A stretch of 14,669 bases of DNA from a virus. The position numbers and the translations under genes are program-made. Numbering within the stretch: position 1 is the first letter of the stretch; the number at the start of each line of letters is the position of its first letter. The notes below the pieces were generated by a model. That model was not told the origin of the DNA and did no database searches. It was given only the letters and a program-made list of their open reading frames with translations. Shown here piece after piece: positions 237-14,546 of this stretch. The stretch lies in UHGV virus genome UHGV-0214741, one strand, 5' to 3'.

Positions 237-253
237 ATGATAGTTATTTATCA
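237..253. repeat. Candidate attL core (ATGATAGTTATTTATCA)
   Basis: Matches 14530-14546 at 16 of 17 positions; also an imperfect dyad (TGATAG-TTAT-YTATCA). Both copies are preceded by GCCAA a few bases upstream. Confidence 0.45.
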
Positions 254-257: not shown

Positions 258-400
258 GTGTTCGCGGGTGTTCGTCGTGGTGTATCTATCTCATTTATTG
301 CTATGATTATAAAGGAAAATTTCGTTTTTCTTGTTCGCCCTTGTTCGTCGCTGTTTGCCCTTGTACGATGCACGGTGTAGTCAATGGTGTAGTTAATTTT
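258..400. repeat. Left arm repeat block: TTGTTCG-type 10 bp repeats (258-280 and a tandem array 331-370) followed by tandem 12 bp GGTGTAGTYAAT x2 (374-397)
   Basis: Seen directly: GTGTTCGCGG, GTGTTCGTCGTGG, then TTGTTCGCCC / TTGTTCGTCG / CTGTTTGCCC / TTGTACGATG as four consecutive 10 bp units, then ACGGTGTAGTCAATGGTGTAGTTAATTTT. The same architecture recurs at 14401-14461. Position next to int and att suggests arm-type recombinase or excisionase binding sites. Confidence 0.6.
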
Positions 401-411
401 GATGACCGGAA

Positions 412-1659
412 ATGCGAAACATGAGCAGGGCAATTCATAGACTTAGCGACACTCTTTTACGAAAATTAAGCGGATCACCAACCACAAAAAACACCTTTTT
501 TAATGATGGTGGCAACCTTAGCGTAAGGCATTCAACCAATGGCCTGTTAACCTGGTATTTCACTTACAGGGCCGGAACTGGCAGGCAGGTATCACCGGAA
601 CGCCTGAGACTGGGCAACTATCCCGATCTGAGCCTGAAAGCAGCCAGAGAAAAAGCGGCACAGTGTCGCGCCTGGCTGGCGGAGGGGAAAAATCCACGCC
701 ATGAGCTTAATCACACAGTGCAGGAAGCGTTAGCACCTGTAACGGTTAAGGACGCGATCACTTACTGGCTTGAGTCATACGCGAAGGAAAAGCGCACTGA
801 CCACGAATCACTGAAAAGCCGGATCAATAAGCACATAATCAGCCAGATTGGTGCTATGCCGCTGGATAAATGCGAGTTACGCCACTGGCTGGCCTGTTTT
901 GACCAGCTTGCTAAGCGTAATCCGGTATCAGCCGGCTTTTTGTTGCAGGTATGCAAGCAGGCGCTTAAGTACTGCCGTAAACGTCGCTACGCCGTCAGTA
1001 ACGTTCTTGATGATATGGTCGTAGGTGATGTGGGAAAAAAAGCAGAAATAAGCGAGCGAGTGCTAACAAACAAGGAGCTTGGCGAGCTACTCCGCGCACT
1101 GGATGAAAAAATTTTCCCGCCGTACTACAGCGCCTTAATTCGCCTTCTGATTGTCTTTGGATGCCGTACCACTGAGCTAAGACGCTCCGAGGTTCAGGAA
1201 TGGGATTTTAAAGAAATGCTCTGGACTGTGCCGAAAGAACACAGCAAAACGAAGGTAGCAATATTCAGGCCAATACCGGAAGCGATCTTGCCGTTTGTCA
1301 TGAAGCTGGTGGAGAAGAACAGGCACACGGGCTTATTGCTTGGAGAACTGAAAGGGCAATCATCCGTAGCAGAGTACGGAAGAACGGCACACAGACGCAT
1401 TAATCAAGCCCCCTGGTCGTTGCATGACATCCGGCACACATTTACAACCATGCTGAACGATTTAGGCGTGGATCCGCATATTGTCGAGCAGCTTACCGCC
1501 CACCAGATGCCGGGGATGCAACGAGTCTATAACCACTCCCGTTATCTTGATGCAAAACGTGATGCTCTTAATCTATGGGTAGACCGTCTCGAGCTTCTCC
1601 AGAACAATGATGAAAAAATCGTTGTTATGACCCCGCGAATTTACCCCCAAAATTCTTGA
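412..1659 (+). CDS. int: Tyrosine site-specific integrase, P4-type (N-terminal DUF4102-like arm-binding domain plus C-terminal catalytic domain)
   Basis: 415 aa ORF. The N-terminus (LSDTLLRKL...FFNDGGNLSV...GLLTWYFTYR...LRLGNYPDLSLKAAREKA) fits the P4-integrase arm-binding pattern. The C-terminus has HDIRHTF (HxxR box) and RVYNHSRY with the catalytic Tyr. Stop TGA at 1657-1659. Confidence 0.9.
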   Translation: MRNMSRAIHRLSDTLLRKLSGSPTTKNTFFNDGGNLSVRHSTNGLLTWYFTYRAGTGRQVSPERLRLGNYPDLSLKAAREKAAQCRAWLAEGKNPRHELNHTVQEALAPVTVKDAITYWLESYAKEKRTDHESLKSRINKHIISQIGAMPLDKCELRHWLACFDQLAKRNPVSAGFLLQVCKQALKYCRKRRYAVSNVLDDMVVGDVGKKAEISERVLTNKELGELLRALDEKIFPPYYSALIRLLIVFGCRTTELRRSEVQEWDFKEMLWTVPKEHSKTKVAIFRPIPEAILPFVMKLVEKNRHTGLLLGELKGQSSVAEYGRTAHRRINQAPWSLHDIRHTFTTMLNDLGVDPHIVEQLTAHQMPGMQRVYNHSRYLDAKRDALNLWVDRLELLQNNDEKIVVMTPRIYPQNS

Positions 1660-2078
1660 CAAATTACGGCTGTTTTTTCTTTAAGAGATTACAGCCGTGA
1701 ATAAATCGTAGAATATCGGAAAATATCTGCAAATATCTTCGCTTTATATATGTCAACCATCAAAAAATTGGAATGTCTTCTTCTGAACTTTTATTCTCTG
1801 TTTCTTGATTGTTCCAACACTTGATGGTTTATCTATTTGTTTTTAATGAGATAATTCAAGCGTAATGCCAAGTAACGACATTTTTTGTTGCATCGCTTAA
1901 AAACTCGTGACACGATTTTAAACACTAACGAGCTTCTACGAACCTTAGCGAACAAAGCCTTTAGCAAGGTTGTGTTTTTAATTTAAGAGGTGAAAAAAGA
2001 ATCTAAGTAATATCCGATCTCATATATCTACAGCTAAGAGAAAAGTTTATATACGTAATTTTTTATGTAGGTTTCTGT

Positions 2079-2288
2079 ATGCGTGAAATAAATGAAGATC
2101 GCGTAATCCGTGAGGATGAATGTCGTAAGTTAACTGGAGTGTGTCGCACTACACGCTATGAACTGGAGAAAAAAGGGAATTTCCCGTCACGCCGTAATCT
2201 GGGCGGTCGTTCTGTAGGTTGGCTGCTGTCCGAGGTTATGGAATGGGTTAAAAGCCGGGATCGCATTAATTCAGGCAAGGCAGCGTAA
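2079..2288 (+). CDS. alpA: AlpA-family phage transcriptional regulator / excisionase-like DNA-binding protein
   Basis: 69 aa; the segment CRKLTGVCRTTRYELEKKGNFPSRRNLGGRSVGWLLSEVMEWVKSR matches the AlpA (Phage_AlpA) helix-turn-helix pattern. It lies immediately downstream of int, as in P4-like elements and PICIs. Preceded by a roughly 420 bp AT-rich non-coding region. Confidence 0.8.
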   Translation: MREINEDRVIREDECRKLTGVCRTTRYELEKKGNFPSRRNLGGRSVGWLLSEVMEWVKSRDRINSGKAA

Positions 2289-2305
2289 AGGGGAGCATAT
2301 GACAT

Positions 2306-2335
2306 ATAAAACAAAGGCGACCGGGGGCGGTCGCC
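2306..2335 (-). terminator. Candidate rho-independent terminator for the minus-strand small-gene unit
   Basis: Perfect 8 bp stem GGCGACCG / CGGTCGCC with a 4 nt loop at 2316-2335. On the minus strand it is followed by TTTGTTTTAT (complement of 2306-2315). Confidence 0.45.
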
Positions 2336-2402
2336 AATGGATACACACTAAACTTGAACGCATCACCAACAATGCCACATTTGCGGCTGGTGGGCAATGT
2401 GA

Positions 2403-2591
2403 TCAGTCAGATTTGGTTCGTTCCAAGGTTTGCAACGAGAGCTTTTTCCTGTGCTCTTTAAGGAATTTCTCAAGAGCAAAAGCACATGGCGCGAATCTTT
2501 CTGATTCATGCTCTATCTTTCTGCGCCGTCTTTTCCGTGCCGGTGATAATGTTTTGGTCAATTCTTTATCGGTCATTGTGTTGTCCTGCAT
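2403..2591 (-). CDS. Hypothetical small basic protein (about 57-62 aa)
   Basis: ORF downstream of the RHH gene on the minus strand; highly charged (ARKRRRRKIEHESERF). No convincing SD before the first ATG; the second ATG (codon 6, MTDKEL) has AGGA 7 nt upstream. Could be spurious. Confidence 0.3.
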   Translation of the reverse strand: MQDNTMTDKELTKTLSPARKRRRRKIEHESERFAPCAFALEKFLKEHRKKLSLQTLERTKSD

Positions 2592-2633
2592 AGCAATGCG
2601 CCGTAGTTACTCACACCACGGCGCTGGTGATGG

Positions 2634-2813
2634 TTACTCCTGCTCTTTGGCCTTGCGGCGCTGGCGGCGTTTGATCTCGCCTTTAACGGCAGTAACTATA
2701 AATTGCGCCTTGCTTTCACCTTCATCTAAATTTTTTTCTAAGTCTGCAACAACATCATGCGGGAATCTGGCATTTAACTGTTGCGACTTATTATTTGTTG
2801 AACCTGTTGCCAT
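2634..2813 (-). CDS. Ribbon-helix-helix (Arc/MetJ-like) DNA-binding protein, candidate repressor of the replication operon
   Basis: 59 aa starting from the internal ATG at 2813-2811, which has GAGAGGA 8 nt upstream. MATGSTNNKSQQLNARFPHDVVADLEKNLDEGESKAQFIVTAVKGEIKRR fits the RHH beta-strand / helix / helix pattern (compare Arc FNLRWPREVLDLVRKVAEENGRSVNSEIYQRV). Transcribed divergently from the 3004 operon. Confidence 0.55.
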   Translation of the reverse strand: MATGSTNNKSQQLNARFPHDVVADLEKNLDEGESKAQFIVTAVKGEIKRRQRRKAKEQE

Positions 2814-2833
2814 TACTGAATCCTCTCTAAGTT

Positions 2834-2926
2834 GGTGCGATTCAGTATACACAAAAAAAATTTCAGAGAAAGGCTTGAAGTGCGATTCACTTGCTGATAG
2901 GTTAAAAACGAATGGTGCGATGCACC
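2834..2926. promoter_or_regulatory. Divergent promoter/operator region with three GTGCGAT(T/G)CA repeats
   Basis: GGTGCGATTCAG at 2834-2845, AGTGCGATTCAC at 2879-2890, GGTGCGATGCACC at 2914-2926 (the last is a perfect dyad GGTGC-GAT-GCACC). A TATACT -10-like hexamer on the minus strand overlaps the first site. Confidence 0.4.
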
Positions 2927-3003
2927 AAGCAACAACGCCCCGCAGTGGTGGCACACATGCAGGGCGTCTAACCACCAACGATAGCAACAGTATCGAGGCA
3001 GCT

Positions 3004-3207
3004 ATGAGAAATTATACCAGACACCCGCAAGGGCGGGACTCGTACAACCTGAATAAATACATCTGGCGTTTTATCGCCCTGAGCACGGCACAACCGCGCG
3101 TGATTACCATTGAGGCCACCAGCGAACAGGAAGCACGCCAGCAATCCCCGGCTGGCTACGTGATGGTATTCGCCGCCCGTATTCGTCAGGGGGTGTGCCA
3201 TGCCTGA
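3004..3207 (+). CDS. Hypothetical protein, first gene of the replication operon (67 aa)
   Basis: Internal ATG of the 2299-3207 ORF with GAGG 5 nt upstream; the C-terminal 67 aa have normal composition while the upstream 235 codons do not. The stop overlaps the next ATG (ATGCCTGA). Confidence 0.5.
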   Translation: MRNYTRHPQGRDSYNLNKYIWRFIALSTAQPRVITIEATSEQEARQQSPAGYVMVFAARIRQGVCHA

Positions 3208-3520
3208 TATGTCAAATTACCAGTACCTGATTAATCCGCATTTTAACTGTGAGCATGATATTGCTAAAAAGGTTTATTCCGCTGCTGATGGGGCTACTGA
3301 CAATATATCAATGGCTGTTGCGTCAATTGGTAGCCTGATGTGGCATGCGTCAGAAAATGAGGACTATGACGAAAAGGCCATGCGCATTGATATGGGTAAT
3401 ATCGGTTTGTTACTGGCAATGCTTGGGCAGTTTGATATTTCGTTACGGTGCACCATTGAAAATGCCACAGATGCATTAAATGCCATAAAGAAAGCGAATA
3501 CTGATTCAAATCGGGGATAA
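3200..3520 (+). CDS. Hypothetical protein (106 aa)
   Basis: ORF with GGGGG 6 nt upstream of the ATG, translationally coupled to the previous gene. Hand count of one 60-nt line gives about 40 percent G+C, lower than the downstream replication gene. Confidence 0.6.
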   Translation: MPDMSNYQYLINPHFNCEHDIAKKVYSAADGATDNISMAVASIGSLMWHASENEDYDEKAMRIDMGNIGLLLAMLGQFDISLRCTIENATDALNAIKKANTDSNRG

Positions 3521-3526
3521 ATAATC

Positions 3527-3826
3527 ATGAGAACATATTTATCTGGCTTGACTGCCAGCGGTTATGCACACCCCAAAATTATCCCCGGCGCTATTTATCT
3601 GGATAAGAACGGTAACAGAGTAACGGTAAAAGAACTGATGTTTGACCGTGTGTATTTTATTCGTGATGGCTATTCATTTCATAGTTCGCTGAACGTGGAG
3701 ATCTTTATTAGCAGATTCCGGCGGGAAATCCCGACTTCCAGAAATAACCATGTGTCACGTGTGGATGTGGATAAAAAACTGCAGGAACTGAAAAACATGA
3801 TTGCCGCGTGGAGAGAGCCGAAATGA
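3527..3826 (+). CDS. Hypothetical protein (99 aa)
   Basis: ORF with GGGGA 9 nt upstream of the ATG. Its stop TGA (3824-3826) overlaps the replication-protein ATG (3823-3825) as ATGA. Hand-counted lines give about 37-42 percent G+C. Confidence 0.6.
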   Translation: MRTYLSGLTASGYAHPKIIPGAIYLDKNGNRVTVKELMFDRVYFIRDGYSFHSSLNVEIFISRFRREIPTSRNNHVSRVDVDKKLQELKNMIAAWREPK

Positions 3827-5640: not shown

Positions 5641-5654
5641 ACTTATGGAATAAC

Positions 5655-5883
5655 TGTTCACCACTGTTCACCCTGTCATAAATATCTTTTGTATCAGTAT
5701 GTTATAGGGTGAACAGTTATTTATGAACTGTTCACCAAACTATTCACTGTTCACCTTTTTGATTGTTTATTGAGCTTCAAGGGTGAACAGTGGTGAACAG
5801 TTGGTGAATAGTTTTTGTGAAACTGTTCACCCCTTAACATTATGAATTAAAAGATAAAATATCAAAAGGTGAACAGGTGAAGG
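5655..5883. promoter_or_regulatory. Replication origin: array of TGTTCACC iterons in both orientations with AT-rich spacers
   Basis: Forward TGTTCACC at 5655, 5665, 5729, 5748, 5824. Reverse GGTGAACA at 5708, 5782, 5792, 5868. Degenerate copies at 5803 (GGTGAATA) and 5876 (GGTGAAGG). Several are at 10 bp phasing. TGTTCACC is the P4 ori/crr type I iteron as I recall it. Confidence 0.7.
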
Positions 5884-5927
5884 GTTAAAACGCAAAAATT
5901 TTAATTTACTGCTGTGAGATAAAGCCT

Positions 5928-6173
5928 ATGACAGCGAAGCACACAAAAAAATCACAATCGCACGCCCTTGATTTGACGGAACACTGGTTAAGGGTGTCGA
6001 TAAAAATCATCGACCGCAACGCCGGGGAAGGATATGCGAAAGCACATCCCGAACTGATTAGCTCATTCATGACAACGGCAGCTGCAAACTTTGCCACGCT
6101 GACAGAACGGGAGATTGCCGAAGCGGAACAGGTGACAACCATCAACGTTAAAACCGGAGAGCAGACAGCATGA
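5928..6173 (+). CDS. Hypothetical protein (81 aa)
   Basis: ORF directly after the ori; its stop overlaps the next ATG (ATGA at 6170-6173). No recognisable motif. Confidence 0.5.
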   Translation: MTAKHTKKSQSHALDLTEHWLRVSIKIIDRNAGEGYAKAHPELISSFMTTAAANFATLTEREIAEAEQVTTINVKTGEQTA

Positions 6174-6860: not shown

Positions 6861-6869
6861 AATAATAAA

Positions 6870-6897
6870 GGCCTGGTAAAATCCAGGCCATTTTTTT
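6870..6897. terminator. Bidirectional rho-independent terminator between convergent genes
   Basis: Stem GGCCTGG (6870-6876), loop TAAAAT, stem CCAGGCC (6883-6889), then TTTTTTT (6891-6897) on the plus strand. The minus strand reads the same hairpin followed by TTTATTATT. Confidence 0.7.
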
Positions 6898-7402
6898 ACA
6901 GTAAGCCTATTAGGGCACTTGCGCCAGCCCCAACAATGCTGGCAACGGTACTGTTTTCCAGTAACTGCTTTAATACTGATTTGGCTTGTACATCCCCCGA
7001 TTTAGCGACTTTTTCAACCAGTTCAGTGATGCTGATGTTTACCAGCATATGGTTATGCTCACCTATCTGCACTTGATCACCACTAATTGAACCAATGTTA
7101 AATGTATTACTTTTAGTTGGCGTCATATGTTCATTTCCCGTGATATTTTCAATATAGAGAGTCAACATATTTGGATGATTGGTTCCCTGTCTGCGGGTTC
7201 CATTGGGAAGCAACTTCATATCTATAATTTTTAGATTTATCTCGTTTTTACCGACACGCTGGATAATGTGTTGACCAATAGTTACTTCCGGTTCATTTGT
7301 ATATGGAATTAATACCTTGTTTTCTTTTGCGTTTCTTTTACCTCTGAATGATTCGCCATTAATTATGAAAGTATCAGGATATACCATTGCGCTTAAATTC
7401 AT
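6896..7402 (-). CDS. Accessory (cargo) gene: 168 aa hypothetical protein with a C-terminal hydrophobic Gly/Ala-rich tail, candidate membrane-anchored effector
   Basis: Only sizeable gene on the opposite strand. It has its own SD (AAGGA 6 nt before the ATG at 7402-7400) and its own terminator. Hand-counted G+C is roughly 32-43 percent over most of the gene versus about 58 percent in the adjacent capsid gene. C-terminus is STVASIVGAGASALIGLL. No motif I recognise in the N-terminal 145 aa. Confidence 0.65.
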   Translation of the reverse strand: MNLSAMVYPDTFIINGESFRGKRNAKENKVLIPYTNEPEVTIGQHIIQRVGKNEINLKIIDMKLLPNGTRRQGTNHPNMLTLYIENITGNEHMTPTKSNTFNIGSISGDQVQIGEHNHMLVNISITELVEKVAKSGDVQAKSVLKQLLENSTVASIVGAGASALIGLL

Positions 7403-7467
7403 GATGCGTCCTTTGTTGTAGTCAGAGACAGCAATAATAGGCCATGGTTTACTTCTTTTGTAAATTA

Positions 7468-7498
7468 TTTGTTCGTGTTCTTTCGTGGTTGTTCGGTC
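7468..7498. repeat. Internal third copy of the TTGTTCG repeat array, in the divergent promoter region between the cargo gene and the capsid operon
   Basis: TTTGTTCGTG (7468-7477), TTCTTTCGTGG (7478-7488), TTGTTCGGTC (7489-7498) at about 10 bp phasing; compare 14401-14431 and 331-370. Candidate minus-strand -35 TTTACA (7464-7459) and -10 TATTAT (7439-7434) lie immediately beside it. Confidence 0.5.
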
Positions 7499-7688
7499 TG
7501 ACTGACAGGTGTTTACATACTGATTTTTATGTATATGTTGGAGCGTGGCACTCAGACGTGAGCCGCCACAATGCCGCCTGACCCCCTGCGCGATGCCGGG
7601 TTGATCTGCGAGATGCCGAGAGTGTCGGGCGGCGCTCCCCCCGTGTTGGTTTCACGTCCTGAATCTTAACCAATACGAGAAAACCTTC

Positions 7689-8858
7689 ATGAAGAAATTA
7701 ATCGAACTCCGCCAGCAAAAAAACGCCCTGAAAAACCAGATGCGATCCCTGCTGGAAAAAGCCGACAGTGAAAACCGTAGTCTGAACGCTGAAGAAGGCA
7801 AACAGTTTGATGAACTGCGTGCAAAAGCTGATGCCCTCGACACAGAAATTTCCCGCCTCGAGTCTGTGGCTGATGAAGAACGCAGCAAGCCAGGAACGGG
7901 CATCCAGAAATTATCATCTGATGAATTGCGTAACTACATCGTAACCGGAGATGTGCGATCACTGTCCACCAGCACTGACAGCGGCAGGGATGGCGGATAT
8001 ACCGTAATTCCTGAGCTTGATCGCGAAGTCATGCGCCAGCTACAGGATGACAGTGTTATGCGCGTGATCGCGACCGTGAAGACCGCAAAATCAAATGAGT
8101 TTCAGAAACTGGTTTCCACTGGCGGCGCAACTGTAGGACGAGGCACAGAAGGCAGCGCACGCAGTGAAACCAACACCCCGAAAATTGAACGCGTAACCAT
8201 CAAGTTGAATCCGATCTACGCCTACCCGAAAACCACGCAGGAAATCCTGGATTTTTCAGAGGTGGATATTCTGGGCTGGTTATCCTCCGAAATTGCCGAC
8301 ACGTTCGCCAGCACCGAAGAGGATGATTTTGTTAATGGCGACGGTAACGGCAAGCCGAAAGGCTTCATGGCTTACACCCGTGCGGCGACCAGTGACAAAA
8401 CCCGCGCTTTTGGCACCATTGAAAAAATAGTAGCGGCAAGTGGAACCGCCATTACAGCGGACGAACTGATCGACATTCTCTACAAGCTGAAAGCGAAATA
8501 CCGCAAAAATGCCGTCTGGGTGATGAACTCGGGCACGGCAGGGACACTACAGAAGCTGAAAAATGAGAACGGCGATTATATCTGGCGCGACAGCCTTAAA
8601 GAAGGTGCGCCGGATATGTTGCTTGGTCGTCCTGTTTACTGCCTGGAGTCCATGCCGGACATCGGCGCAGGAAAAGCACCGCTAGCGGTTGGCGATTTCA
8701 GTCGTGGTTATTTCATCGTTGATCATGTAACAGGGATTCGCACCCGACCGGACAACATTACTGAACCCGGATTCTACAAGGTCCACACGGATAAATATCT
8801 GGGCGGTGGTGTGGTGGATTCAAACGCCATCAAAATTCTGGAAATGAAAGCTGGCTAG
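7689..8858 (+). CDS. Major capsid protein, HK97-type, with an N-terminal coiled-coil (scaffold-like delta) region
   Basis: 389 aa. The N-terminal roughly 70 aa are strongly helical and charged (LIELRQQKNALKNQMRSLLEKADSENRSLNAEEGKQFDELRAKADALDTEISRLE), followed by a body typical of HK97-family capsid proteins. Followed by a prohead protease and portal. Confidence 0.85.
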   Translation: MKKLIELRQQKNALKNQMRSLLEKADSENRSLNAEEGKQFDELRAKADALDTEISRLESVADEERSKPGTGIQKLSSDELRNYIVTGDVRSLSTSTDSGRDGGYTVIPELDREVMRQLQDDSVMRVIATVKTAKSNEFQKLVSTGGATVGRGTEGSARSETNTPKIERVTIKLNPIYAYPKTTQEILDFSEVDILGWLSSEIADTFASTEEDDFVNGDGNGKPKGFMAYTRAATSDKTRAFGTIEKIVAASGTAITADELIDILYKLKAKYRKNAVWVMNSGTAGTLQKLKNENGDYIWRDSLKEGAPDMLLGRPVYCLESMPDIGAGKAPLAVGDFSRGYFIVDHVTGIRTRPDNITEPGFYKVHTDKYLGGGVVDSNAIKILEMKAG

Positions 8859-8870
8859 TCATGAGTAAGG

Positions 8871-8892
8871 AGGAGGCTGCGGCCTCCTTTTT
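8871..8892 (+). terminator. Intra-operon rho-independent terminator/attenuator after the capsid gene
   Basis: AGGAGGC / GCCTCCT stem (8871-8877 / 8882-8888) with TGCG loop, followed by a T-run through 8892. It sits 13 nt after the capsid stop and before the protease SD (GGAG 8902-8905). Confidence 0.6.
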
Positions 8893-8912
8893 CAGCTTTA
8901 TGGAGTACACCG

Positions 8913-9473
8913 ATGAAAAACACCGATTTTGAAATCCGCACATCTGAACTGACCGCCAGCAATAAAAAGCTGGTGGGGTATGCCGTTCGCTGGAACAGCC
9001 TTTCAGAAATTATCTGGGACGAATTCCGCGAACAGTTCACGCCGGGGGCTTTTGCTGACTATCTGGCGACGGGTAATGATGTGCGCTGCCTGTATGAGCA
9101 TGACTATACCCAACTGCTGGGGCGCACCAAATCCGGCACTCTGGTACTGACTGAGGATAACACCGGGTTACGTTTTGAACTGACACCGCCGGATACCCAG
9201 CTTGGAAAAGATGTGCTTACGCTGGTGGAGCGTGGCGACATTACAGGAATGAGCTTTGGTTTTCGCGCATTATGCGAGGAGTGGAGTATCGCGCAAAAAC
9301 CGTATCTGCGTACCGTAACCGCCGCTGAACTCCGTGAAATCACAATAACGTCGATGCCTGCTTATCCAGAATCTGGCGTGGAGATTGCCCACCGTTCGTT
9401 GTTTGCACAGCACCCTGAATTACGTCCGACAGGAAATAATCGTCATCGCTGGTCTGAGCTGGCGGGGTTGTGA
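8913..9473 (+). CDS. Prohead maturation protease, HK97 family
   Basis: 186 aa; GYAVRWNS ... GAFADYL ... VRCLYEHD ... GLRFEL ... GDITGMSFGF matches the HK97 prohead protease pattern as I recall it. Confidence 0.85.
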   Translation: MKNTDFEIRTSELTASNKKLVGYAVRWNSLSEIIWDEFREQFTPGAFADYLATGNDVRCLYEHDYTQLLGRTKSGTLVLTEDNTGLRFELTPPDTQLGKDVLTLVERGDITGMSFGFRALCEEWSIAQKPYLRTVTAAELREITITSMPAYPESGVEIAHRSLFAQHPELRPTGNNRHRWSELAGL

Positions 9474-9474
9474 T

Positions 9475-10689
9475 ATGTGGTGGCCTTTTAGTCGTAAAAA
9501 AAGCGAGCAGCGTAACCTGTCCATTGATGATTTTCTGGCGCTGTCCGGCGTACCGAATACCGGATCCGGAGAATATGTTTCTGCCGGGACGGCTGAATCA
9601 TTGCCTGCAGTGATGAATGCGGTTTCTGTCATCGCTGAGGCGGTGGCCACGATGCCGTGTTATCTGTATCTGGTACGTAATGACAAGGGCAGGGAGGCGC
9701 GGGAATGGCTGGACAGTCACCCAGTAGATATTCTGCTGAATGAGCAGCCTAATTCGTGCCAGACACCTTACCAGTTTAAACGCACAATGATGCGTCACTG
9801 CCTGCTAAACGGTAACGCCTATGCGGTTATTGAGTGGGGGCAGGACGGGCAGCCAAAATCACTTCATCCTTATGCGCCGGGGTGTGTTGTACCGGAACGC
9901 ACAGGCGCACACAAATACCGCTATACCATCACCGAACCCTGTACAGGAACGGTGCGCACGTATTTACAGGAAGAAGTTTTGCATCTCCGCTATGCCTCGG
10001 ATGATGGCTTTCTGGGGCGTTCCCCCGTCACGATTTGCCGTGAGGCGCTGGGGCTTGGCCTTGCTCAACAGCGTCACGGAGCCAGCATTATGAAAGATGG
10101 CATGATGGCGGCAGGGATTATCACGTCAGGCGAATGGCTGGACGGCGTGAAAGGTAAACAGGCATTGGATGCTCTGGAACGCTACAAGGGGGCGAAAAAT
10201 GCCGGAAAAACGCCAATCCTTGAAGGGGGCATGGATTACAGGCAACTGGGAATGAGTAACCAGGATGCGGAATGGCTGGCCTCCCGTCGCTTCTCCATTG
10301 AAGACATCGCCCGCATGTTCAACGTATCGCCTATTTTTCTGCAGGAATACAGCAACAGCACCTACAGCAATTTCAGCGAGGCAAGCCGCGCGTTTCTGAC
10401 CATGACAATGCGCCCGTGGCTGGCGAACTTCGAACAGCAAATCAAGGCCGCTTTGCTGGTGGCTTCTCCCGTACCTGGTACCCGTTATCTGGTTGAGTTT
10501 GATTCAGCCGATTTATTACGCGCCACACCCACCGAACGTTATGCCACGTATGAGAAAGGGATTAAGAACGGGATCATGAATCCGAACGAAGCCCGTGAGC
10601 GTGAGGGTATGCCGCCGCGTGAAGGTGGTGATGAGTTCAGCCAGGCATGGAAACAGACTGTGGAAATTAAAGGGAGAAAAGATGAGTGA
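9475..10689 (+). CDS. Portal protein, HK97 family
   Basis: The ORF track starts at 9385 inside the protease gene. ATG 9475 (MWWPFSRKK...) begins 1 nt after the protease stop and is the more likely start. About 404 aa, with length and position typical of HK97-type portals. Confidence 0.85.
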   Translation: MWWPFSRKKSEQRNLSIDDFLALSGVPNTGSGEYVSAGTAESLPAVMNAVSVIAEAVATMPCYLYLVRNDKGREAREWLDSHPVDILLNEQPNSCQTPYQFKRTMMRHCLLNGNAYAVIEWGQDGQPKSLHPYAPGCVVPERTGAHKYRYTITEPCTGTVRTYLQEEVLHLRYASDDGFLGRSPVTICREALGLGLAQQRHGASIMKDGMMAAGIITSGEWLDGVKGKQALDALERYKGAKNAGKTPILEGGMDYRQLGMSNQDAEWLASRRFSIEDIARMFNVSPIFLQEYSNSTYSNFSEASRAFLTMTMRPWLANFEQQIKAALLVASPVPGTRYLVEFDSADLLRATPTERYATYEKGIKNGIMNPNEAREREGMPPREGGDEFSQAWKQTVEIKGRKDE

Positions 10690-10984
10690 AGCCAGAATTA
10701 CACCTGATGAAGTCAGGGCACATCTTCGACTTGATGATGATTTATCCGGTGAAGGCGAACTTCTGAAAATGTATACCGATGCGGCGCTGGAAGCCTGCCA
10801 GAAGCATATCGGGAAACGTTTTGAAGACGGGCTGGAATTTACCCCGGCAATGCGTGTTGGTTGCCTGATGTACATCGCTTTCCTGTACGAGAACCGGGAA
10901 GCGGTTTCACCAGTGGAGCACTCGGAACTGCCTATGGCTATTTCTGCGCTCTGGTCAGTTTATCGTGACGTAGGGGTGTACTGA
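10682..10984 (+). CDS. Head-tail connector (gp6-like head-tail adaptor) protein
   Basis: The ORF track begins at 10595, but ATG 10682 has GGGAG 5 nt upstream and overlaps the portal stop. MSEARITPDEVRAHLRLDDD...GELLKMYTDAALEACQKHIGKR fits the gp6-like connector pattern. About 100 aa. Confidence 0.7.
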   Translation: MSEARITPDEVRAHLRLDDDLSGEGELLKMYTDAALEACQKHIGKRFEDGLEFTPAMRVGCLMYIAFLYENREAVSPVEHSELPMAISALWSVYRDVGVY

Positions 10985-11424
10985 TGCCGTGGCAACCATT
11001 AAGGCGATGCACTGAGCCTGGCTGTAATAAGCGCGTGAAGTCCGGCAAGTGTGAAGAGCACAGGCGGGCTGCATGGCGTGCAGAGGATGCCAGACGGGGA
11101 CACCGCCGCGCGCGCGGGTATTCCCGACAGTGGGACAAATACCGCGCCCTGTACCTGAGCAAAAACCCGTTATGCGTGCGTTGTCTGGCTAAGGGGATTT
11201 ATACGCCAGCTCTTGTGGTGGATCACATCATTCCCATCAATGGCGGCGGTGATGTTCTCTTCTGGCCTGAGTGGAATCACCAGGCATTGTGCCAGACGTG
11301 CCACAACCGTAAGACGACACGAGAAGATCCAGCCACGAAAGCAAACCGTAAAGCGGGCATGTATCGCGAGCAGGAAGAACGGGCGGCACACCGTAACGAC
11401 TGGATGTATGGCGATGATGACTGA
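10984..11424 (+). CDS. HNH endonuclease (packaging-associated, terminase partner)
   Basis: 146 aa; Cys-rich N-terminus (CTEPGCNKRVKSGKCEEH) and HNH core VVDHIIPINGGGD ... WNHQALCQTCHNRKT. Its ATG overlaps the connector stop (TGATG). Position immediately upstream of terS is the usual one for HNH-dependent cos packaging. Confidence 0.85.
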   Translation: MPWQPLRRCTEPGCNKRVKSGKCEEHRRAAWRAEDARRGHRRARGYSRQWDKYRALYLSKNPLCVRCLAKGIYTPALVVDHIIPINGGGDVLFWPEWNHQALCQTCHNRKTTREDPATKANRKAGMYREQEERAAHRNDWMYGDDD

Positions 11425-11600
11425 ACAGGAGCAAACCAGGCTGATACGTGGACTGATAAGGCAGCGTGACACATGGAAGACACAGGAGACAGAGCACAAA
11501 GCCAACAGGACAGGGCGCACAAAACGCACCACAGCGAAGCGATTAACCGACCGTGACCGCGAGGTCATGGAATGTTTTCGCAATCGCTGGTGAGGCCGTC

Positions 11601-11700
11601 AGAGGGGGTGGGGGTGGTTTTCAGGACGAAACCGTCCCTGCCGGACACCGACCGCCCCCTCAAATTTTTGTGCACGGTAATTTTTTTGAAAATAATTGGG
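11601..11700. other. Candidate cos / terminase recognition region: GC-rich dyad element followed by an AT-rich tract, directly upstream of terS
   Basis: GAGGGGGTGG (11602-11611) pairs with CCGCCCCCTC (11652-11661) with one mismatch; nested GGACG-AAAC-CGTCC hairpin (11624-11637); then AAATTTTTG...TTTTTTTGAAAATAATT. Functional assignment is by position only. Confidence 0.3.
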
Positions 11701-11712
11701 CGAAAAAAGAAC

Positions 11713-12069
11713 ATGGCAAGACCACCAAAAGCCCCCGCTTACCTGGATGAAATCGCGGTCAGGCAGTGGAAGGAAAAATCGCGCCAGCTTTCCGGGCGGG
11801 AAGACCTTACCCCCGCCGACTGGAGCAATCTGGAACTGTATTGCGTTAACTACTCTATATACCGCAAAGCCGTCGAAGACCTTGCGACGCGCGGGTTCAG
11901 CATTGTTAACAGTCAGGGCAGCGAGAGCAGAAACCCCGCACTGAGCGCAAAGGCTGACGCAGAAAGAATAATGATCAAAATGGCTTCTTTGCTGGGTTTT
12001 GACCCGGTAAGCCGTCGCAGAAATCCACCGGAAACAGAGGAAGAGGACGAACTTGACCGCCTGGCATGA
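11713..12069 (+). CDS. terS: Terminase small subunit, P27-family-like
   Basis: The ORF track starts at 11572, but the recognisable protein begins at ATG 11713 (MARPPKAPAYLDEIAVRQWKEK...), a typical P27-type TerS N-terminus. About 118 aa. Confidence 0.8.
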   Translation: MARPPKAPAYLDEIAVRQWKEKSRQLSGREDLTPADWSNLELYCVNYSIYRKAVEDLATRGFSIVNSQGSESRNPALSAKADAERIMIKMASLLGFDPVSRRRNPPETEEEDELDRLA

Positions 12070-13714
12070 GTACGCAGAAGGCGTAAAAAACGGCAAAATT
12101 ACGGCCTGTAAACGACTGAAACAGGCTGTTAAACGGTATTTTTCTGACCTTGAAAACTCCCTTTACACGTTCGATCCGGAGGTCGTGGAGCGGTTTATTG
12201 CCTTTTCCCGGGTGTGCCCGCACGTAAAAGGCGCAATGCGCGGTAGCCCCATTGAACTTGAGCCGTGGCAGCAGTTCGCCTTTGCCTGCATCCTGGGATT
12301 TAAGGTTAAGGCCACCGGACGGCGCAAATACACCAGCGCATTCATTGAAGTACCGCGAAAAAATGCCAAATCCACGGTCGCCGCTATCCTGGCTAACTGG
12401 TTTCTGGTTATGGAAAACGGGCAGCAGGATATTTACACCGCCGCCGTGAGTCGTGATCAGGCGCGGATCGTGTTTGATGATGCGCGTCAGATGTGCCTTT
12501 TATCCCGACCGTTACGAAAGCGGGTAAATATTCAGGCGCACAAGGTGATACACCCGAAAACCAACAGCCTGTTAAAGCCACTGGCAGCAAAAGCGGCAAC
12601 CATTGAGGGGACAAACCCGAGTCTTGCCATTGTGGATGAATATCACCTGCACCCAGACAACGGGGTTTATTCCGCACTTGAACTGGGGATGGGGGCGCGT
12701 CCGGAGGGGCTGTTATTTGCCATCACCACATCGGGGAGCAACGTTGTTTCAGCCTGTAAACAACACTACGACTATTGCTGCCAGATACTGGATGGTGAAG
12801 AGGTGAACGAATCCATGTTCGTACTGATTTACGAGCTGGATGATGAAAGCGAGGTTGACGATCCGGCGATGTGGATAAAGGCGAATCCCAATATCGATGT
12901 TTCCGTCGATCGTGAAAAACTGGCCTCAACCATCCAGAAAGCGCGGGGTATTCCGTCGCAGTGGGTGGAAATGCTCACCAAGCGATTCAATATCTGGTGT
13001 CAGGGGGCTACGCCGTGGATGGGTAACGGTGCATGGGCGGAGTGCGCCGGAACGTTCGCTGAGGCGGATTTATACGGGCAGGAGTGCTATGCGGGGCTGG
13101 ACTTATCATCAACCAGCGATATTTCCAGCGTGTGCTATGCCTTTCCGGTCGGTAAAAAGATTATGCTGGTTTCACGTCACTATCTACCGGAATTTCAGCT
13201 ACAGAACCCTGCCAATAAAAACCGCGCCATCTATCGCCAGTGGGCAAAGGCGGGCTGGATACGCACAACACCGGGTGACTGCATTGATTATGACCGTATC
13301 CGTGATGACATCATGGCGGATGCAGAGAATTTCAATATCAGGCTGGTGGGTTTCGATACATGGAACGCCACGCACCTGAGGACGCAGCTACAGGGAGCGG
13401 GATTTGAGGTGGAGCCGTTCCCGCAAACGTACCTTCGTTTTAGTCCGGCGGCGAAATCGTTCGAAGTTTTTGTTAACCGGAAGGTGATTGTTCATCGTGG
13501 TGATCCGGTGCTGGCCTGGTCAATGAGTAATGTTGTGATGCAGAGTGACGCGAACGCCAATATCAAGCCGAACAAGAAAAAATCATCCAATAAGATAGAC
13601 CCGAGCGTTGCGGCGCTGATGGCGTTTGGCACATTCCAGGCTGAGCATGAGGAATTTGCATTTGATATGAGCGACAGCCAGAAAGAGCGACTTGCGGCAT
13701 TTGATGGGGTATGA
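12053..13714 (+). CDS. terL: Terminase large subunit (Terminase_1-like ATPase/nuclease)
   Basis: 553 aa. The ORF opens with TTG at 12053, preceded by AGAGGA 5 nt upstream; there is no in-frame ATG nearby. It overlaps the terS 3' end. Size and position fit TerL; VPRKNAKST is a Walker-A-like motif. The exact start is uncertain. Confidence 0.85.
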   Translation: MTAWHEYAEGVKNGKITACKRLKQAVKRYFSDLENSLYTFDPEVVERFIAFSRVCPHVKGAMRGSPIELEPWQQFAFACILGFKVKATGRRKYTSAFIEVPRKNAKSTVAAILANWFLVMENGQQDIYTAAVSRDQARIVFDDARQMCLLSRPLRKRVNIQAHKVIHPKTNSLLKPLAAKAATIEGTNPSLAIVDEYHLHPDNGVYSALELGMGARPEGLLFAITTSGSNVVSACKQHYDYCCQILDGEEVNESMFVLIYELDDESEVDDPAMWIKANPNIDVSVDREKLASTIQKARGIPSQWVEMLTKRFNIWCQGATPWMGNGAWAECAGTFAEADLYGQECYAGLDLSSTSDISSVCYAFPVGKKIMLVSRHYLPEFQLQNPANKNRAIYRQWAKAGWIRTTPGDCIDYDRIRDDIMADAENFNIRLVGFDTWNATHLRTQLQGAGFEVEPFPQTYLRFSPAAKSFEVFVNRKVIVHRGDPVLAWSMSNVVMQSDANANIKPNKKKSSNKIDPSVAALMAFGTFQAEHEEFAFDMSDSQKERLAAFDGV

Positions 13715-14001
13715 CGAGAATGACTGAAACTGATCTACTAAAAATAATTCGCCGCATTACCGGAATCAGTCAGCAGCCTGACGAACAGGCTACACAGCCG
13801 GACAGCGTGATAGCCGAAAATTACGCGCGTGTGGTGGCTGAGGTAATGCGCCGTGACGGTATTGAGCTTAACGGCGTGGATATGCGCAACATACGAACCA
13901 GAGTTCTTGAGTTGCTGGCATACCGTCGCCGTTCTCAACAACGGAGGGAGAGCGCGAAAAATACTTACCAGTGGAGGAAGCCGGAGCACTTACGGCGGTA
14001 A
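13711..14001 (+). CDS. Hypothetical protein (96 aa), translationally coupled to terL
   Basis: Its ATG overlaps the terL stop (ATGA at 13711-13714). Arg-rich C-terminus. Last gene of the packaging operon; function unknown. Confidence 0.5.
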   Translation: MTRMTETDLLKIIRRITGISQQPDEQATQPDSVIAENYARVVAEVMRRDGIELNGVDMRNIRTRVLELLAYRRRSQQRRESAKNTYQWRKPEHLRR

Positions 14002-14020
14002 CTGGTTGATATTACCGAAA

Positions 14021-14226
14021 GTGCAAAAATGCACTTAGCAACTGGTGGCGAGTTGCAGATCTGCAACTCGACTATGAAACTACCCGTAGTTTGGGTAGTA
14101 AGAGTAACACCCAGATTTTGGGGCTTACTCGCGATACCCAAATAAAGGGTATCGGTGTAAGAAATATCGTTTCTCATATGTGAGCACCGAGGGCGGAATT
14201 CCGCCTTCGGTTACTTATTGTGCTCA
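14021..14226. repeat. Non-coding cluster of perfect and near-perfect palindromes / stem-loops
   Basis: GTGCA-AAAA-TGCAC (14021-14034); perfect 18 bp palindrome AGTTGCAGATCTGCAACT (14051-14068); ACTACCC-N7-GGGTAGT (14079-14099); GATACCC-N7-GGGTATC (14133-14153); perfect 14 bp GGCGGAATTCCGCC (14192-14205) inside a 24 bp near-palindrome (14187-14210), itself flanked by TGAGCAC (14181-14187) and GTGCTCA (14220-14226). Confidence 0.5.
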
Positions 14227-14400
14227 TGCACAGGGAGGGGCGGGTCAAATCTCTGTACCCTGACGTCTTCCGGACTGCCAGCCCCATCGATTTTTTATAC
14301 CCGCGAAAAATGAAAAACGCTTCACGCTGGTGGGCCTGATGCCGATAACTGGTTTCATGACTGATAGCCGGAAAATGATAACGATTAAAGCGTGTTGATC

Positions 14401-14461
14401 TTTGTTCGTGGTTGTTCGATATTGTTCGTGGAACGGTGTAGTTAATGGTGTAGTTAATTTT
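14401..14461. repeat. Right arm repeat block: TTGTTCG repeats x3 followed by tandem GGTGTAGTTAAT x2
   Basis: TTTGTTCGTGG (14401-14411), TTGTTCGAT (14412-14420), ATTGTTCGTGG (14421-14431), then ACGGTGTAGTTAATGGTGTAGTTAATTTT (14433-14461). This 29-mer matches 372-400 with one mismatch. Confidence 0.6.
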
Positions 14462-14529
14462 ACTGTTTTTGACGAGCTTATTGTTTGCAACTCAATGAAA
14501 AATAAAGGCTAATAAGCCAAATGCTATAA

Positions 14530-14546
14530 ATGATAGTTATCTATCA
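14530..14546. repeat. Candidate attR core (ATGATAGTTATCTATCA)
   Basis: Direct repeat of 237-253 with one mismatch; a perfect dyad TGATAG-TTAT-CTATCA. Confidence 0.45.

What the first reader, a model, noticed from the sequence alone, without database searches (positions are those of the whole stretch)
258..14461. TTGTTCG repeat array occurs three times: at both element arms and upstream of the capsid operon
Seen directly: arrays of TTGTTCG(Y)(S) units at about 10 bp phasing lie at 258-370 (left arm, before int), 14401-14431 (right arm) and 7468-7498 (between the cargo gene and the capsid operon). The two arm copies are each followed by ACGGTGTAGTYAATGGTGTAGTTAATTTT; the internal copy is followed by a degenerate version (CAGGTGTTTACATACTGATTTTT). 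Helically phased direct repeats near att are typical binding sites for an excisionase-like protein or the integrase arm-binding domain. A copy upstream of the late operon would let one regulator (AlpA is the obvious candidate) couple excision to capsid-gene activation. The motif also resembles the ori iteron TGTTCACC, so the replication protein is an alternative binder.
Basis: partly seen in the sequence, partly recalled or inferred. Interest (0 to 1): 0.65.

Follow-up and report, generated by a model that had tools for sequence, protein, structure and literature searches.

The report
Excisionase-type repeat arrays in a phage satellite
A 14.3-kb capsid-forming phage satellite inserted between cspD and clpS of E. 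coli carries helically phased GTTCG repeats on both attachment-site arms, in front of its capsid operon and near alpA, and these are most likely the binding sites of its small AlpA excisionase/regulator, which would tie excision to capsid-gene transcription.

Summary
TTGTTCG occurs 9 times against 2.5 expected. Seven copies lie in three same-strand arrays with exact 10-bp spacing. None of this is native DNA: island-free genomes match only window 1-253 and 14526-14669. The att core is therefore the 21-bp repeat at 233-253 and 14526-14546, and both end arrays lie on the arms of attP.

The 24-bp GGTGTAGTYAAT pair after each arm array is a separate element. Across 25 related islands its sequence changes with the integrase N-terminal arm-binding domain, even where AlpA is identical. 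P4 has the same tandem 12-bp arm repeats. It is best read as the integrase arm-type site.

The GTTCG units do not follow the integrase or the replication protein. They match the mapped sites of the excisionase TorI in prophage KplE1: GTTCG cores, blocks of 2 and 3, 10-bp phasing, next to the arm sites before int.

The internal array sits at about -54 to -74 of a promoter-like site (TTTACA-16-TATGTT) conserved across Enterobacterales. A fourth GTTCG pair lies upstream of alpA.

Best reading: AlpA operators, an Apl/Cox/Vis-like dual excisionase and regulator. Binding is untested. New member of a known kind; moderate interest.

The parts
233..253 (.). attL copy of the 21-bp att core (ATAGATGATAGTTATTTATCA). 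It overlaps the 3' end of the small host ORF yljB.
   Evidence: Direct repeat D16. Island-free genomes end their match at 253. Alignment with the MG1655 empty site places the crossover within 237-246.
258..277 (+). Distal P'-arm block: two 10-bp phased units, GTGTTCGCGG and GTGTTCGTCG (GTTCG at 260 and 270).
   Evidence: Both pentamers are unchanged in the diverged island L089, while the flanking spacer has many substitutions. Equivalent distal blocks are present in L003, L006, L012, L013 and L021.
331..367 (+). Proximal P'-arm block: four 10-bp phased units (TTGTTCG, TTGTTCG, CTGTTTG, TTGTACG). Predicted AlpA/excisionase sites.
   Evidence: None of the 19 substitutions against L089 falls in a pentamer. 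Same layout as TorI sites I3-I5 of KplE1 attL.
374..397 (+). P'-arm tandem 12-bp pair GGTGTAGTCAAT GGTGTAGTTAAT. Predicted integrase arm-type sites, 24 bp before the int ATG.
   Evidence: Present twice in each of 20 of 24 islands scanned, the other four (L008, L016, L045, L053) showing only the int-side copy, with a sequence class that follows the Int N-domain. P4 is annotated with the same tandem 'attP arm sequence repeats'.
421..1659 (+). int: P4-type tyrosine integrase (Arm-DNA-bind_3 + Phage_int_M + Phage_integrase).
   Evidence: Pfam. RefSeq annotation of the near-identical (99.8%) protein in L001.
1939..1953 (-). Inverted GTTCG-N5-GTTCG pair 125 bp upstream of alpA. Possible AlpA autoregulatory operator, or a relic of a hairpin.
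   Evidence: a minus-strand pair lies before alpA in all 7 class-i islands. In five relatives it sits in the loop of a covarying hairpin just before the alpA ATG.
2079..2288 (+). alpA: 69-aa winged-helix protein, the proposed binder.
   Evidence: Pfam Phage_AlpA E 2.9e-16. PHROG 'excisionase and transcriptional regulator'. Nearest solved structure is 8c3t, the GIsul2 excisionase.
7456..7468 (+). TTTTGTAAATTAT box, the most conserved part of the capsid-upstream region. It abuts the array.
   Evidence: Homology with other cf-PICIs begins here. Invariant in alignment A1. Highest information content over 29 loci.
7469..7495 (+). Internal array: TTGTTCG, TCTTTCG, TTGTTCG at 10-bp spacing. Unit centres lie at about -74, -64 and -54 from the predicted transcription start.
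   Evidence: Three phased units in L001 and L002 (TTGTTCG, TTGTTCC, TTGTTCG), and phased GT-rich units at the same place in many genera.
7512..7539 (+). Predicted sigma-70 promoter of the capsid/packaging operon: TTTACA, 16 bp, TATGTT.
   Evidence: the only promoter-like site in 7350-7750. Both hexamer positions are conserved in relatives.
7545..7569 (+). Hairpin GTGGCACTCAGACGTGAGCCGCCAC at the predicted 5' end of the capsid-operon mRNA.
   Evidence: Invariant in A1 and, with few exceptions, unchanged in the loci that carry the box. Predicted stem-loop. No Rfam family.
7689..8858 (+). Major capsid gene, first gene of the packaging operon: capsid, protease, portal, connector, HNH, TerS, TerL to 13714.
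   Evidence: Pfam.
14402..14428 (+). P-arm array: three exact TTGTTCG units at 10-bp spacing.
   Evidence: Identical in L089 and with one spacer change in L001. Equivalent three-unit arrays are present in L006 and L013; L003, L012 and L021 have units at 10- or 20-bp spacing.
14435..14458 (+). P-arm tandem pair GGTGTAGTTAAT x2. Predicted integrase arm-type sites, centred about 89 bp before the core centre.
14526..14546 (.). attR copy of the att core (ATAAATGATAGTTATCTATCA).

Best explanation
The window holds a capsid-forming phage-inducible chromosomal island (cf-PICI) with a P4-type recombination module.

After excision, attP reads: three GTTCG units, a 12-bp tandem pair, 67 bp, the 21-bp core, two GTTCG units, a 55-bp AT-rich spacer, four GTTCG-like units, a second 12-bp tandem pair, then int. 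The tandem pairs are the arm-type sites of the integrase N-terminal domain.

The GTTCG units are spaced one helical turn apart and all point the same way. They are the sites on which the 69-aa winged-helix protein AlpA would polymerise head to tail. This would bend the arms and help Int at the neighbouring arm sites, so that excision is favoured.

The same three-unit array lies at about -54 to -74 of the promoter of the capsid/packaging operon, and a two-unit pair lies upstream of alpA. Once a helper phage switches alpA on, one protein would then excise the island, reinforce its own synthesis and turn on, or at least modulate, capsid-gene transcription.

Shown here: the sequence architecture, its conservation and the co-variation patterns. 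Inferred: that AlpA is the binder, and the sign of its effect at the capsid promoter.
For: 1. The arrays are island-borne and non-random.

2. In seven islands of the same integrase class, from E. coli, Enterobacter, Kosakonia, Pantoea and Serratia, GTTC[GA]-N5-GTT[CT][GA] occurs 3-8 times against 0.2-0.3 expected. Every hit is on the P' arm, before alpA, before the capsid gene or on the P arm. The only exceptions are the ori iterons of this window.

3. Against the diverged island L089, 19 substitutions fall in 254-420. None is in the six pentamers or the tandem pair (Fisher p = 3.5e-4).

4. The tandem pair tracks the integrase and not AlpA. Xenorhabdus islands with identical AlpA and the same arm sequence upstream of the pair have TGTATAAACA or GGTGGGGTAATC pairs, matching two different Int arm domains.

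5. Experimental precedent: the five TorI excisionase sites in KplE1 attL have cores GTTCG, GATCG and GTCCG, in blocks of 2 and 3. The triple is at 10-bp phasing next to the IntS arm sites and intS (PMC2951348; sequence read).

6. P4 has tandem 12-bp arm repeats on both sides of its core, preceded on the int side by four 10-bp phased units.

7. AlpA is Pfam Phage_AlpA and PHROG 'excisionase and transcriptional regulator'. Its nearest solved structure is an excisionase.

8. In related PICIs, alpA is required for induction, excision and transfer, and activates its own promoter and downstream genes (PMC6092414; PMC11773190; cf-PICI preprint).

9. The capsid-upstream array sits at a fixed position before a conserved promoter-like site. 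It is present in 172 E. coli genomes and in many genera, whatever the integrase class or replication module.
Against: - No binding data exist for this or any PICI AlpA in the papers I could search.
- Sequence similarity between AlpA and TorI is weak: 25% identity with pairwise E 5e-5, hhalign E 0.044, structural TM about 0.5 from a low-confidence model. The TorI precedent is therefore an analogy within a fold class, not orthology.
- Islands with a 43-55% identical long-form AlpA, such as L002, carry the same GTTCG capsid-promoter array. Islands of class i vary in how well the promoter units match. Promoter units and AlpA type therefore do not co-vary cleanly.
- AlpA did not change Pint activity in EcCICFT073.
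- The predicted promoter matches 9 of 12 consensus positions, so it may not need an activator.
- The alpA-upstream pair lies inside a covarying hairpin and may be constrained as RNA rather than as an operator.
- The 18-nt identity between the right-arm array and the internal array of relatives includes spacer bases. This also fits recent sequence exchange.
Confidence: 0.55

Rival explanations
1. AlpA sites on the arms only. The array before the capsid operon is bound by something else: a host factor, a helper-phage protein, or another product of the conserved capsid module. Alternatively it is only an upstream promoter element. Its likeness to the arm arrays would then be shallow or come from sequence exchange.
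For: The most conserved feature of the capsid-upstream region is the TTTTGTAAATTAT box, not the units. In many genera the units read GTAC/GTTTAC and occur nowhere else in the element. The array type does not follow the AlpA type. The classical PICI L089 has the same arms and alpA but no array before its late genes.
Against: Within class-i islands the same GTTC[GA] units at the same 10-bp phasing recur at the arms and at the capsid promoter and nowhere else. Three phased units at -54 to -74 is a usual position for an upstream-bound regulator. alpA is required for cf-PICI induction.
Confidence: 0.22
2. The TTGTTCG units are the integrase arm-type sites, like the three adjacent P' sites of lambda. 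The 12-bp tandem pairs are then the excisionase sites.
For: Three adjacent direct repeats at about 10-bp spacing is also the layout of lambda P'1-P'3 (general knowledge). Both motif types lie on both arms.
Against: The tandem pair, not the GTTCG-type region, changes with the Int N-domain while AlpA is held constant. GTTCG is the mapped excisionase core in KplE1, where the Int arm sites are a different motif. An integrase site before a capsid promoter in islands with four other integrase classes would be hard to explain.
Confidence: 0.08
3. The replication initiator binds the arrays, because the unit resembles the ori iteron TGTTCACC.
For: The TGTTC core is shared with the iterons at 5655-5876.
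Against: L001 (DUF927 primase) and L002 (RepA-type helicase) have other replication modules and no GTTCACC clusters, yet keep identical or near-identical arrays. The iterons end in ACC and are arranged as inverted groups, unlike the arrays.
Confidence: 0.02
4. The internal copy is a non-functional relic of an att arm left by tandem integration or recombination.
For: There is an 18-nt near-identity between the right-arm array and the internal array of L001/L002, spacer bases included.
Against: No core and no tandem pair accompany it. Its position before the promoter is fixed in 172 E. coli genomes and in other genera with unrelated att sites.
Confidence: 0.05

Closest known systems
KplE1 (CPS-53)/HK620 recombination module: IntS integrase and TorI excisionase (PMC2951348)
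   Same: Integrase with the same domain set. attL runs from the core to a block of 2 excisionase sites, a block of 3 at 10-bp phasing with GTTCG cores, the Int arm-type sites and then the int ATG, all in the same orientation.
   Different: TorI sites are reported on attL only, whereas here an array also lies on the P arm. TorI represses PintS by abutting the -35, and no promoter is recognisable before int here. TorI is only distantly similar to AlpA. KplE1 has no copy at a late promoter.
Satellite phage P4: attP arm repeats and Vis, an AlpA-family excisionase and regulator of late promoters
   Same: Tandem 12-bp arm repeats on both sides of the core, 134 and 75 bp from its centre, against 142 and 89 bp here. 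Four 10-bp phased units precede the int-side pair. Vis is annotated 'excisionase and transcriptional regulator' and bends att DNA.
   Different: The P4 units read (G/T)TCC, not GTTCG. P4 also has extra single arm repeats, including one in opposite orientation, which I did not look for here. P4 has no capsid genes. By my recollection, unverified here, Vis represses PLL, whereas AlpA in PICIs is an activator.
Dual-purpose recombination directionality factors: Apl of phage 186 and Cox of P2 (PMC7498355)
   Same: One small HTH protein binds direct repeats spaced one helical turn apart both at att and at a promoter region far from att, so that excision and transcription are coupled.
   Different: Apl and Cox repress the lytic and lysogenic switch promoters. 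Here the distant site is upstream of a structural (capsid) operon, in an activator-like position. Different protein families.
Doubled TGTATTGC motif of helper-embedded PICIs (PMC10111431)
   Same: Two co-oriented copies of a tandem 12-bp motif per attP, at 81 and 132 bp from the centre. This is the same element as the pair in L002.
   Different: That paper reports the motif as absent from other PICIs. Here an equivalent pair with a class-specific sequence is found in cspD-clpS, fis and other PICIs. The paper does not describe the GTTCG arrays.
AlpA of Pseudomonas aeruginosa, a Q-like antiterminator (PMC9371919)
   Same: The name only. It is also a positive regulator that reads a DNA element at a promoter.
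   Different: It has at least eight helices with DNA-contact residues numbered up to 142, so it is far longer than 69 aa. It reads a single GGGACG element between -35 and -10 and loads onto RNA polymerase. It is not comparable with a 69-aa protein and upstream repeat arrays.

Membership tests
Capsid-forming PICI (cf-PICI) | 10-18 kb island with int, alpA and a replication module, plus a full capsid/packaging module (capsid, protease, portal, connector, HNH, TerS, TerL) and no tail or lysis genes | tested here: met
   Pfam scans. The island is 14.3 kb between the att cores. Criteria as given in the cf-PICI papers.
Capsid-forming PICI (cf-PICI) | Induction by a helper phage and transfer in its own small capsids with helper tails | not testable with these tools
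   Experimental property, shown for EcCIEDL933 only.
P4-type heterobivalent integrase attP | Tyrosine integrase with an N-terminal arm-type DNA-binding domain | tested here: met
   Arm-DNA-bind_3 E 7.9e-17 and Phage_integrase E 2.7e-18.
P4-type heterobivalent integrase attP | Co-oriented arm repeats on both sides of a core shared with attB | tested here: met
   Tandem pairs at 374-397 and 14435-14458. Core mapped against the MG1655 empty site. P4 has the same layout.
P4-type heterobivalent integrase attP | The arm repeats are bound by the integrase N-domain | not testable with these tools
   Indirect only: five motif classes match five Int N-domain classes, with AlpA held constant in two of them.
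Winged-helix excisionase (RDF) operator array (lambda Xis, TorI, Vis type) | Head-to-tail direct repeats spaced about one helical turn apart | tested here: met
   Exact 10-bp spacing in all three arrays, all on the + strand. General rule stated in PMC7498355.
Winged-helix excisionase (RDF) operator array (lambda Xis, TorI, Vis type) | Located on an att arm next to integrase arm-type sites | tested here: met
   The arrays end 6 bp before the tandem pairs on both arms.
Winged-helix excisionase (RDF) operator array (lambda Xis, TorI, Vis type) | The element encodes a small winged-helix excisionase-family protein | tested here: met
   alpA: Pfam Phage_AlpA. PHROG 'excisionase and transcriptional regulator'. 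8c3t excisionase is the best sequence and structure match.
Winged-helix excisionase (RDF) operator array (lambda Xis, TorI, Vis type) | That protein binds the repeats and stimulates excision | not testable with these tools
   alpA is needed for excision in EcCIMP1 and for induction in EcCICFT073 and EcCIEDL933. No binding data were found.
Dual-function RDF/transcription regulator (Apl, Cox, Vis type) | The same recognition repeats occur at att and at a promoter away from att | tested here: met
   Arrays at the arms, at 7469-7495 before a promoter-like site, and at 1939-1953 before alpA.
Dual-function RDF/transcription regulator (Apl, Cox, Vis type) | A regulatory effect of the protein at that promoter | not testable with these tools
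   Only indirect: AlpA activates PICI genes in EcCICFT073, and alpA overexpression is used to boost EcCIEDL933 production.
Q-like antiterminator AlpA (P. aeruginosa) | A much larger, Q-like fold protein (at least eight helices, DNA-contact residues numbered up to 142) whose N-terminal segment forms a ring in the RNA exit channel, and a single binding element between -35 and -10 | tested here: not met
   The window AlpA is 69 aa with a MerR/excisionase-like fold. The arrays lie upstream of the -35. Features of the Pseudomonas protein from PMC9371919.

The most novel reading that the evidence does not exclude
The phased GTTCG array is the long-missing operator of AlpA, the master regulator of Gram-negative PICIs. 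It defines a four-site regulon: both att arms, the alpA leader and the capsid-operon promoter. Through these sites a single 69-aa excisionase-like protein would directly couple helper-phage sensing to excision, self-amplification and capsid production. At the capsid promoter an excisionase filament would act as a transcriptional activator, whereas most dual-function excisionases repress (P2 Cox activation of P4 PLL is the known exception).
Probability: 0.4. Interest if true: 0.55.

Novelty: new member of a known kind. Interest (0 to 1): 0.4.

Why it matters
AlpA is accepted as the switch that launches Gram-negative PICIs and cf-PICIs, but I found no paper in the searchable library that defines where it binds.

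A concrete, conserved and mutable operator (GTTCG at 10-bp phasing) at four named places makes the circuit directly testable: how excision, alpA autoactivation and capsid-operon expression are ordered, and whether the capsid module is under direct AlpA control.

The comparison also resolves an open point from the helper-embedded-PICI paper, which left the binder of the doubled attP motif undecided. The co-variation shown here assigns it to the integrase arm domain. The motif type is also general to P4-like and PICI attP sites, not unique to one clade.

If AlpA does not bind, the arms are still an ordinary P4-type attP. The capsid-upstream array would then be an unassigned promoter element.

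Tried and rejected
- Native-sequence explanation. Rejected: the empty sites lack the arrays.
- GGTGTAGTTAAT repeat as the att core. Rejected: the junctions map to the 21-bp repeat 64-120 bp further out.
- Replication-protein binding. Rejected by module swaps.
- Internal 'degenerate arm motif'. Rejected in favour of a -35/-10 pair.
- Pseudomonas AlpA antitermination as a model. Rejected: different protein and site geometry.
- Rfam scan of the whole window. Nothing relevant.
- Strict IHF consensus in the arms and the capsid-upstream region. No match.
- Sigma-70-like promoter before int, before alpA and in the right arm. None found.
- GTTTAC-type units of other cf-PICI promoters at the arms of those elements. 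Not found.
- Firmer AlpA-TorI homology by profile comparison and by structure. Both weak. The AlphaFold model was single-sequence with pLDDT 66, so its matches carry little weight.
- PADLOC and Pfam on the cargo gene. No hit.
- Literature searches for a defined AlpA operator in PICIs. None found.


Full report
WHAT THE WINDOW IS. The window runs from the start of cspD (minus strand, ending near base 16) to the start of clpS (ATG at 14633). Between them lies a 14.3-kb island. It encodes a P4-type tyrosine integrase (421-1659), a 69-aa AlpA-family protein (2079-2288) and a D5-type primase-helicase followed by iterons. It also encodes an SSB, one oppositely oriented cargo gene, and a full head and packaging module from capsid to TerL (7689-13714). 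It has no tail or lysis genes. This is the gene set of a capsid-forming phage-inducible chromosomal island, or cf-PICI.

CHECK OF THE OBSERVATION. Exact TTGTTCG occurs 9 times against 2.5 expected, and no shuffle out of 200 reaches 9. Seven copies are on the + strand in three clusters with 10-bp spacing, starting at 331/341, 7469/7489 and 14402/14412/14422. The left arm holds two blocks: two units with GTTCG at 260 and 270, and four units at 333, 343, 353 and 363, the last two degenerate. A 55-bp AT-rich stretch separates the blocks. Each arm array is followed 6 bp later by the tandem pair GGTGTAGTYAAT GGTGTAGTTAAT.

WHERE THE ISLAND ENDS. Of 5,426 complete E. coli genomes, the island-free ones match the window only at 1-253 and 14526-14669. 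Alignment with the MG1655 empty site shows that the junctions are the 21-bp repeat at 233-253 and 14526-14546. Two mismatches within the repeat (G..T in attL, A..C in attR, G..C in attB) place strand exchange inside 237-246. After excision the two end regions join into one attP. Its order is: three GTTCG units, tandem pair, 67 bp, core, two units, spacer, four units, tandem pair, int.

TWO DIFFERENT MOTIFS WITH TWO DIFFERENT PARTNERS. I collected related islands from E. coli (L001-L004, L089) and from 80 loci in other genera through the capsid protein. About 25 of these carry a related int and alpA. In each of them a 12-bp tandem pair lies just before int. In 20 of the 24 scanned a second, co-oriented copy was found at the far end, close to the core; four loci (L008, L016, L045, L053) showed only the int-side copy.

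The pair falls into five sequence classes: GGTG[TC]AGT.A.T, TGTATAAACA, CGGTGTATCAAT, TGTGTATTGCA and GGTGGGGTAATC. The classes coincide with five variants of the beta-strand region of the integrase arm-binding domain. The key case is Xenorhabdus. Islands there have the same AlpA recognition region (near-identical protein) and the same arm sequence upstream of the pair, yet they carry either TGTATAAACA or GGTGGGGTAATC. Each goes with its own Int N-domain. The pair is therefore best assigned to the integrase.

Phage P4 is annotated with the same tandem 12-bp 'attP arm sequence repeats', 134 and 75 bp from the core centre. The distances here are 142 and 89 bp, and in helper-embedded PICIs 132 and 81 bp. 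The paper on helper-embedded PICIs left the binder open and regarded the doubled motif as unique to that clade. The present comparison shows that it is a general feature with class-specific sequence.

THE GTTCG UNITS. The units do not follow the integrase class. They also do not follow the replication module. L001 has a DUF927 primase and L002 a RepA-type helicase, both lack GTTCACC iterons, and both keep the arrays.

In seven islands of the same integrase class as the window, from five genera, the phased pattern GTTC[GA]-N5-GTT[CT][GA] occurs 3-8 times against 0.2-0.3 expected. Every hit lies at one of four places: the int-side arm, just upstream of alpA on the minus strand, upstream of the capsid gene, or the far arm. 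The iterons of this window are the only exception.

L089 is a classical PICI at the same chromosomal site. Against it, 19 substitutions fall in 254-420, and none falls in the six pentamers or the tandem pair (Fisher p = 3.5e-4).

THE EXPERIMENTAL PRECEDENT. In the E. coli prophage KplE1, the excisionase TorI binds five sites in attL whose cores are GTTCG, GATCG and GTCCG. They form a block of two and a block of three separated by 2 nt, next to the IntS arm sites and the intS start (PMC2951348). The MG1655 sequence reads caGTTCGtcatgGTTCGcttcaGATCGTTGACA, which is exact 10-bp phasing in the direction of intS. This matches the core, spacing, block structure and orientation seen at 258-400.

On its int side, P4 likewise has four 10-bp phased units before the arm repeats. 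Excisionases in general bind head to tail on repeats one helical turn apart (PMC7498355).

The window's AlpA is Pfam Phage_AlpA and PHROG 'excisionase and transcriptional regulator'. Its nearest solved structure is the GIsul2 excisionase 8c3t. Its similarity to TorI itself is weak: 25% identity, hhalign E 0.044, TM about 0.5 from a low-confidence model. In the pairwise alignment, TorI residues Y28 and R45, whose mutation impairs DNA binding, align with Y and R of AlpA. I treat this as support for a shared binding mode, not as orthology.

THE INTERNAL COPY. Homology between the capsid-upstream regions of different cf-PICIs starts at 7456, just before the array, and the region is found in 172 E. 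coli genomes. The alignment shows the following, in order:
- an invariant TTTGTAAATTATTTGTTC;
- three phased units, reading TTGTTCG, TTGTTCC, TTGTTCG in L001 and L002;
- a promoter-like site, TTTACA, 16 bp, TATGTT (7512-7539), the only such site in the region;
- an invariant hairpin at the predicted 5' end of the transcript.

The unit centres lie at about -74, -64 and -54. It stays the same in islands whose arm pair is entirely different. Across genera, the first unit and the box are the most conserved parts, and the other two units keep their phase but vary in sequence.

HOW IT MOST LIKELY WORKS. Published work shows that alpA is needed for induction, excision and transfer of related PICIs. 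It also activates its own promoter and downstream genes, and it is switched on by the helper phage. Combined with the architecture above, the best-supported model has these steps:
- AlpA polymerises on the GTTCG arrays of both arms and assists Int at the adjacent arm sites, so that the island excises.
- AlpA binds the pair near alpA.
- AlpA binds the array upstream of the capsid promoter and so links capsid and packaging gene expression to the same signal.

The closest functional analogues are the dual excisionase/regulators Apl, Cox and Vis. The steps that rest on inference are the identity of the binder and the direction of the effect at the capsid promoter.

WEAK POINTS:
- The promoter units do not co-vary cleanly with the AlpA type.
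- AlpA did not affect Pint in EcCICFT073.
- The predicted promoter is fairly strong on its own.
- The alpA-upstream pair lies inside a covarying hairpin and may be constrained as RNA.
- L089 has the same arms but no array before its late genes.
- In other genera the promoter units (GTAC/GTTTAC) are not found on the arms.

VERDICT. The feature is real. The arm part is an ordinary P4-type attP with integrase arm sites and excisionase sites. The new content is the assignment of the two motifs to their binders, the prediction of the AlpA operator, and its presence at the cf-PICI capsid promoter. I rate it a new member of a known kind, with interest 0.4 and confidence 0.55 in the AlpA model as a whole.

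Noticed in passing
window 7545-7569: The hairpin GTGGCACTCAGACGTGAGCCGCCAC sits exactly at the predicted 5' end of the capsid-operon transcript. Stem and loop are unchanged in most of the loci carrying the box, from many genera. There is no Rfam match. It could be an mRNA-stabilising 5' stem-loop or a protein or antiterminator loading site.
   Followed up: partly
window 7456-7468: The box TTTTGTAAATTAT directly upstream of the internal array is the most conserved part of the whole capsid-upstream region. Its binder or role is unknown. It could be a fourth array unit at 11-bp spacing or an UP-like element.
   Followed up: partly
L003 4726-4772, L006 4466-4512, L012 3963-4009, L013 3148-3194, L021 4467-4513; window 1924-1970: A hairpin lies immediately before the alpA start codon. 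Eight of its 13 predicted pairs show compensatory changes. Its loop carries the conserved CGAAC-N5-CGAAC, which is GTTCG pairs on the other strand, and a T run follows in some loci. In the window the stem has decayed and the element lies 125 bp upstream of alpA. It may be a terminator or attenuator that contains an AlpA operator.
   Followed up: partly
window 166-253: The att core overlaps the last bases of the small host ORF yljB (window 166-240 by comparison with L001). Integration keeps the yljB protein sequence unchanged.
   Followed up: partly
L002 1600-16760: A cf-PICI is inserted inside the terL gene of a resident prophage, making it a helper-embedded PICI. It has two AlpA-family genes in tandem after int, a 73-aa Xis-like form and a 92-aa long form. 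This hints at a split of the excisionase and regulator roles in that clade.
   Followed up: partly
L089 16233-26870: A classical, non-capsid-forming PICI occupies the same cspD-clpS site with near-identical arms, int and alpA but a different late region (protease-capsid fusion, DUF1441). One recombination module therefore serves two satellite types.
   Followed up: partly
window 6896-7402 (minus strand): The 168-aa cargo gene matches only PHROG 5789 (unknown function) and has no Pfam or PADLOC hit. The same slot holds unrelated genes in relatives: DUF3775 in L003, ProQ/FinO in L002, a hypothetical gene in L004. It looks like a variable accessory hotspot just upstream of the capsid promoter.
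   Followed up: partly
window 2299-3207: In the 302-aa ORF after alpA, only the last 90 residues or so match PHROG 'transcriptional repressor' families. RefSeq calls the corresponding pieces in relatives Icd-like. The N-terminal 210 residues have no match.
   Followed up: no
window 5655-5876: The replication-origin region has about nine GGTGAACAG/CTGTTCACC iterons in direct and inverted groups, downstream of the primase-helicase gene. They share TGTTC with the arrays but form a separate family.
   Followed up: partly
L023, L028, L029, L031, L053 (Xenorhabdus innexi) and other Xenorhabdus loci: Single Xenorhabdus genomes carry five or more separate contigs with cf-PICI-type capsid genes. This suggests unusually many such elements per genome.
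   Followed up: no
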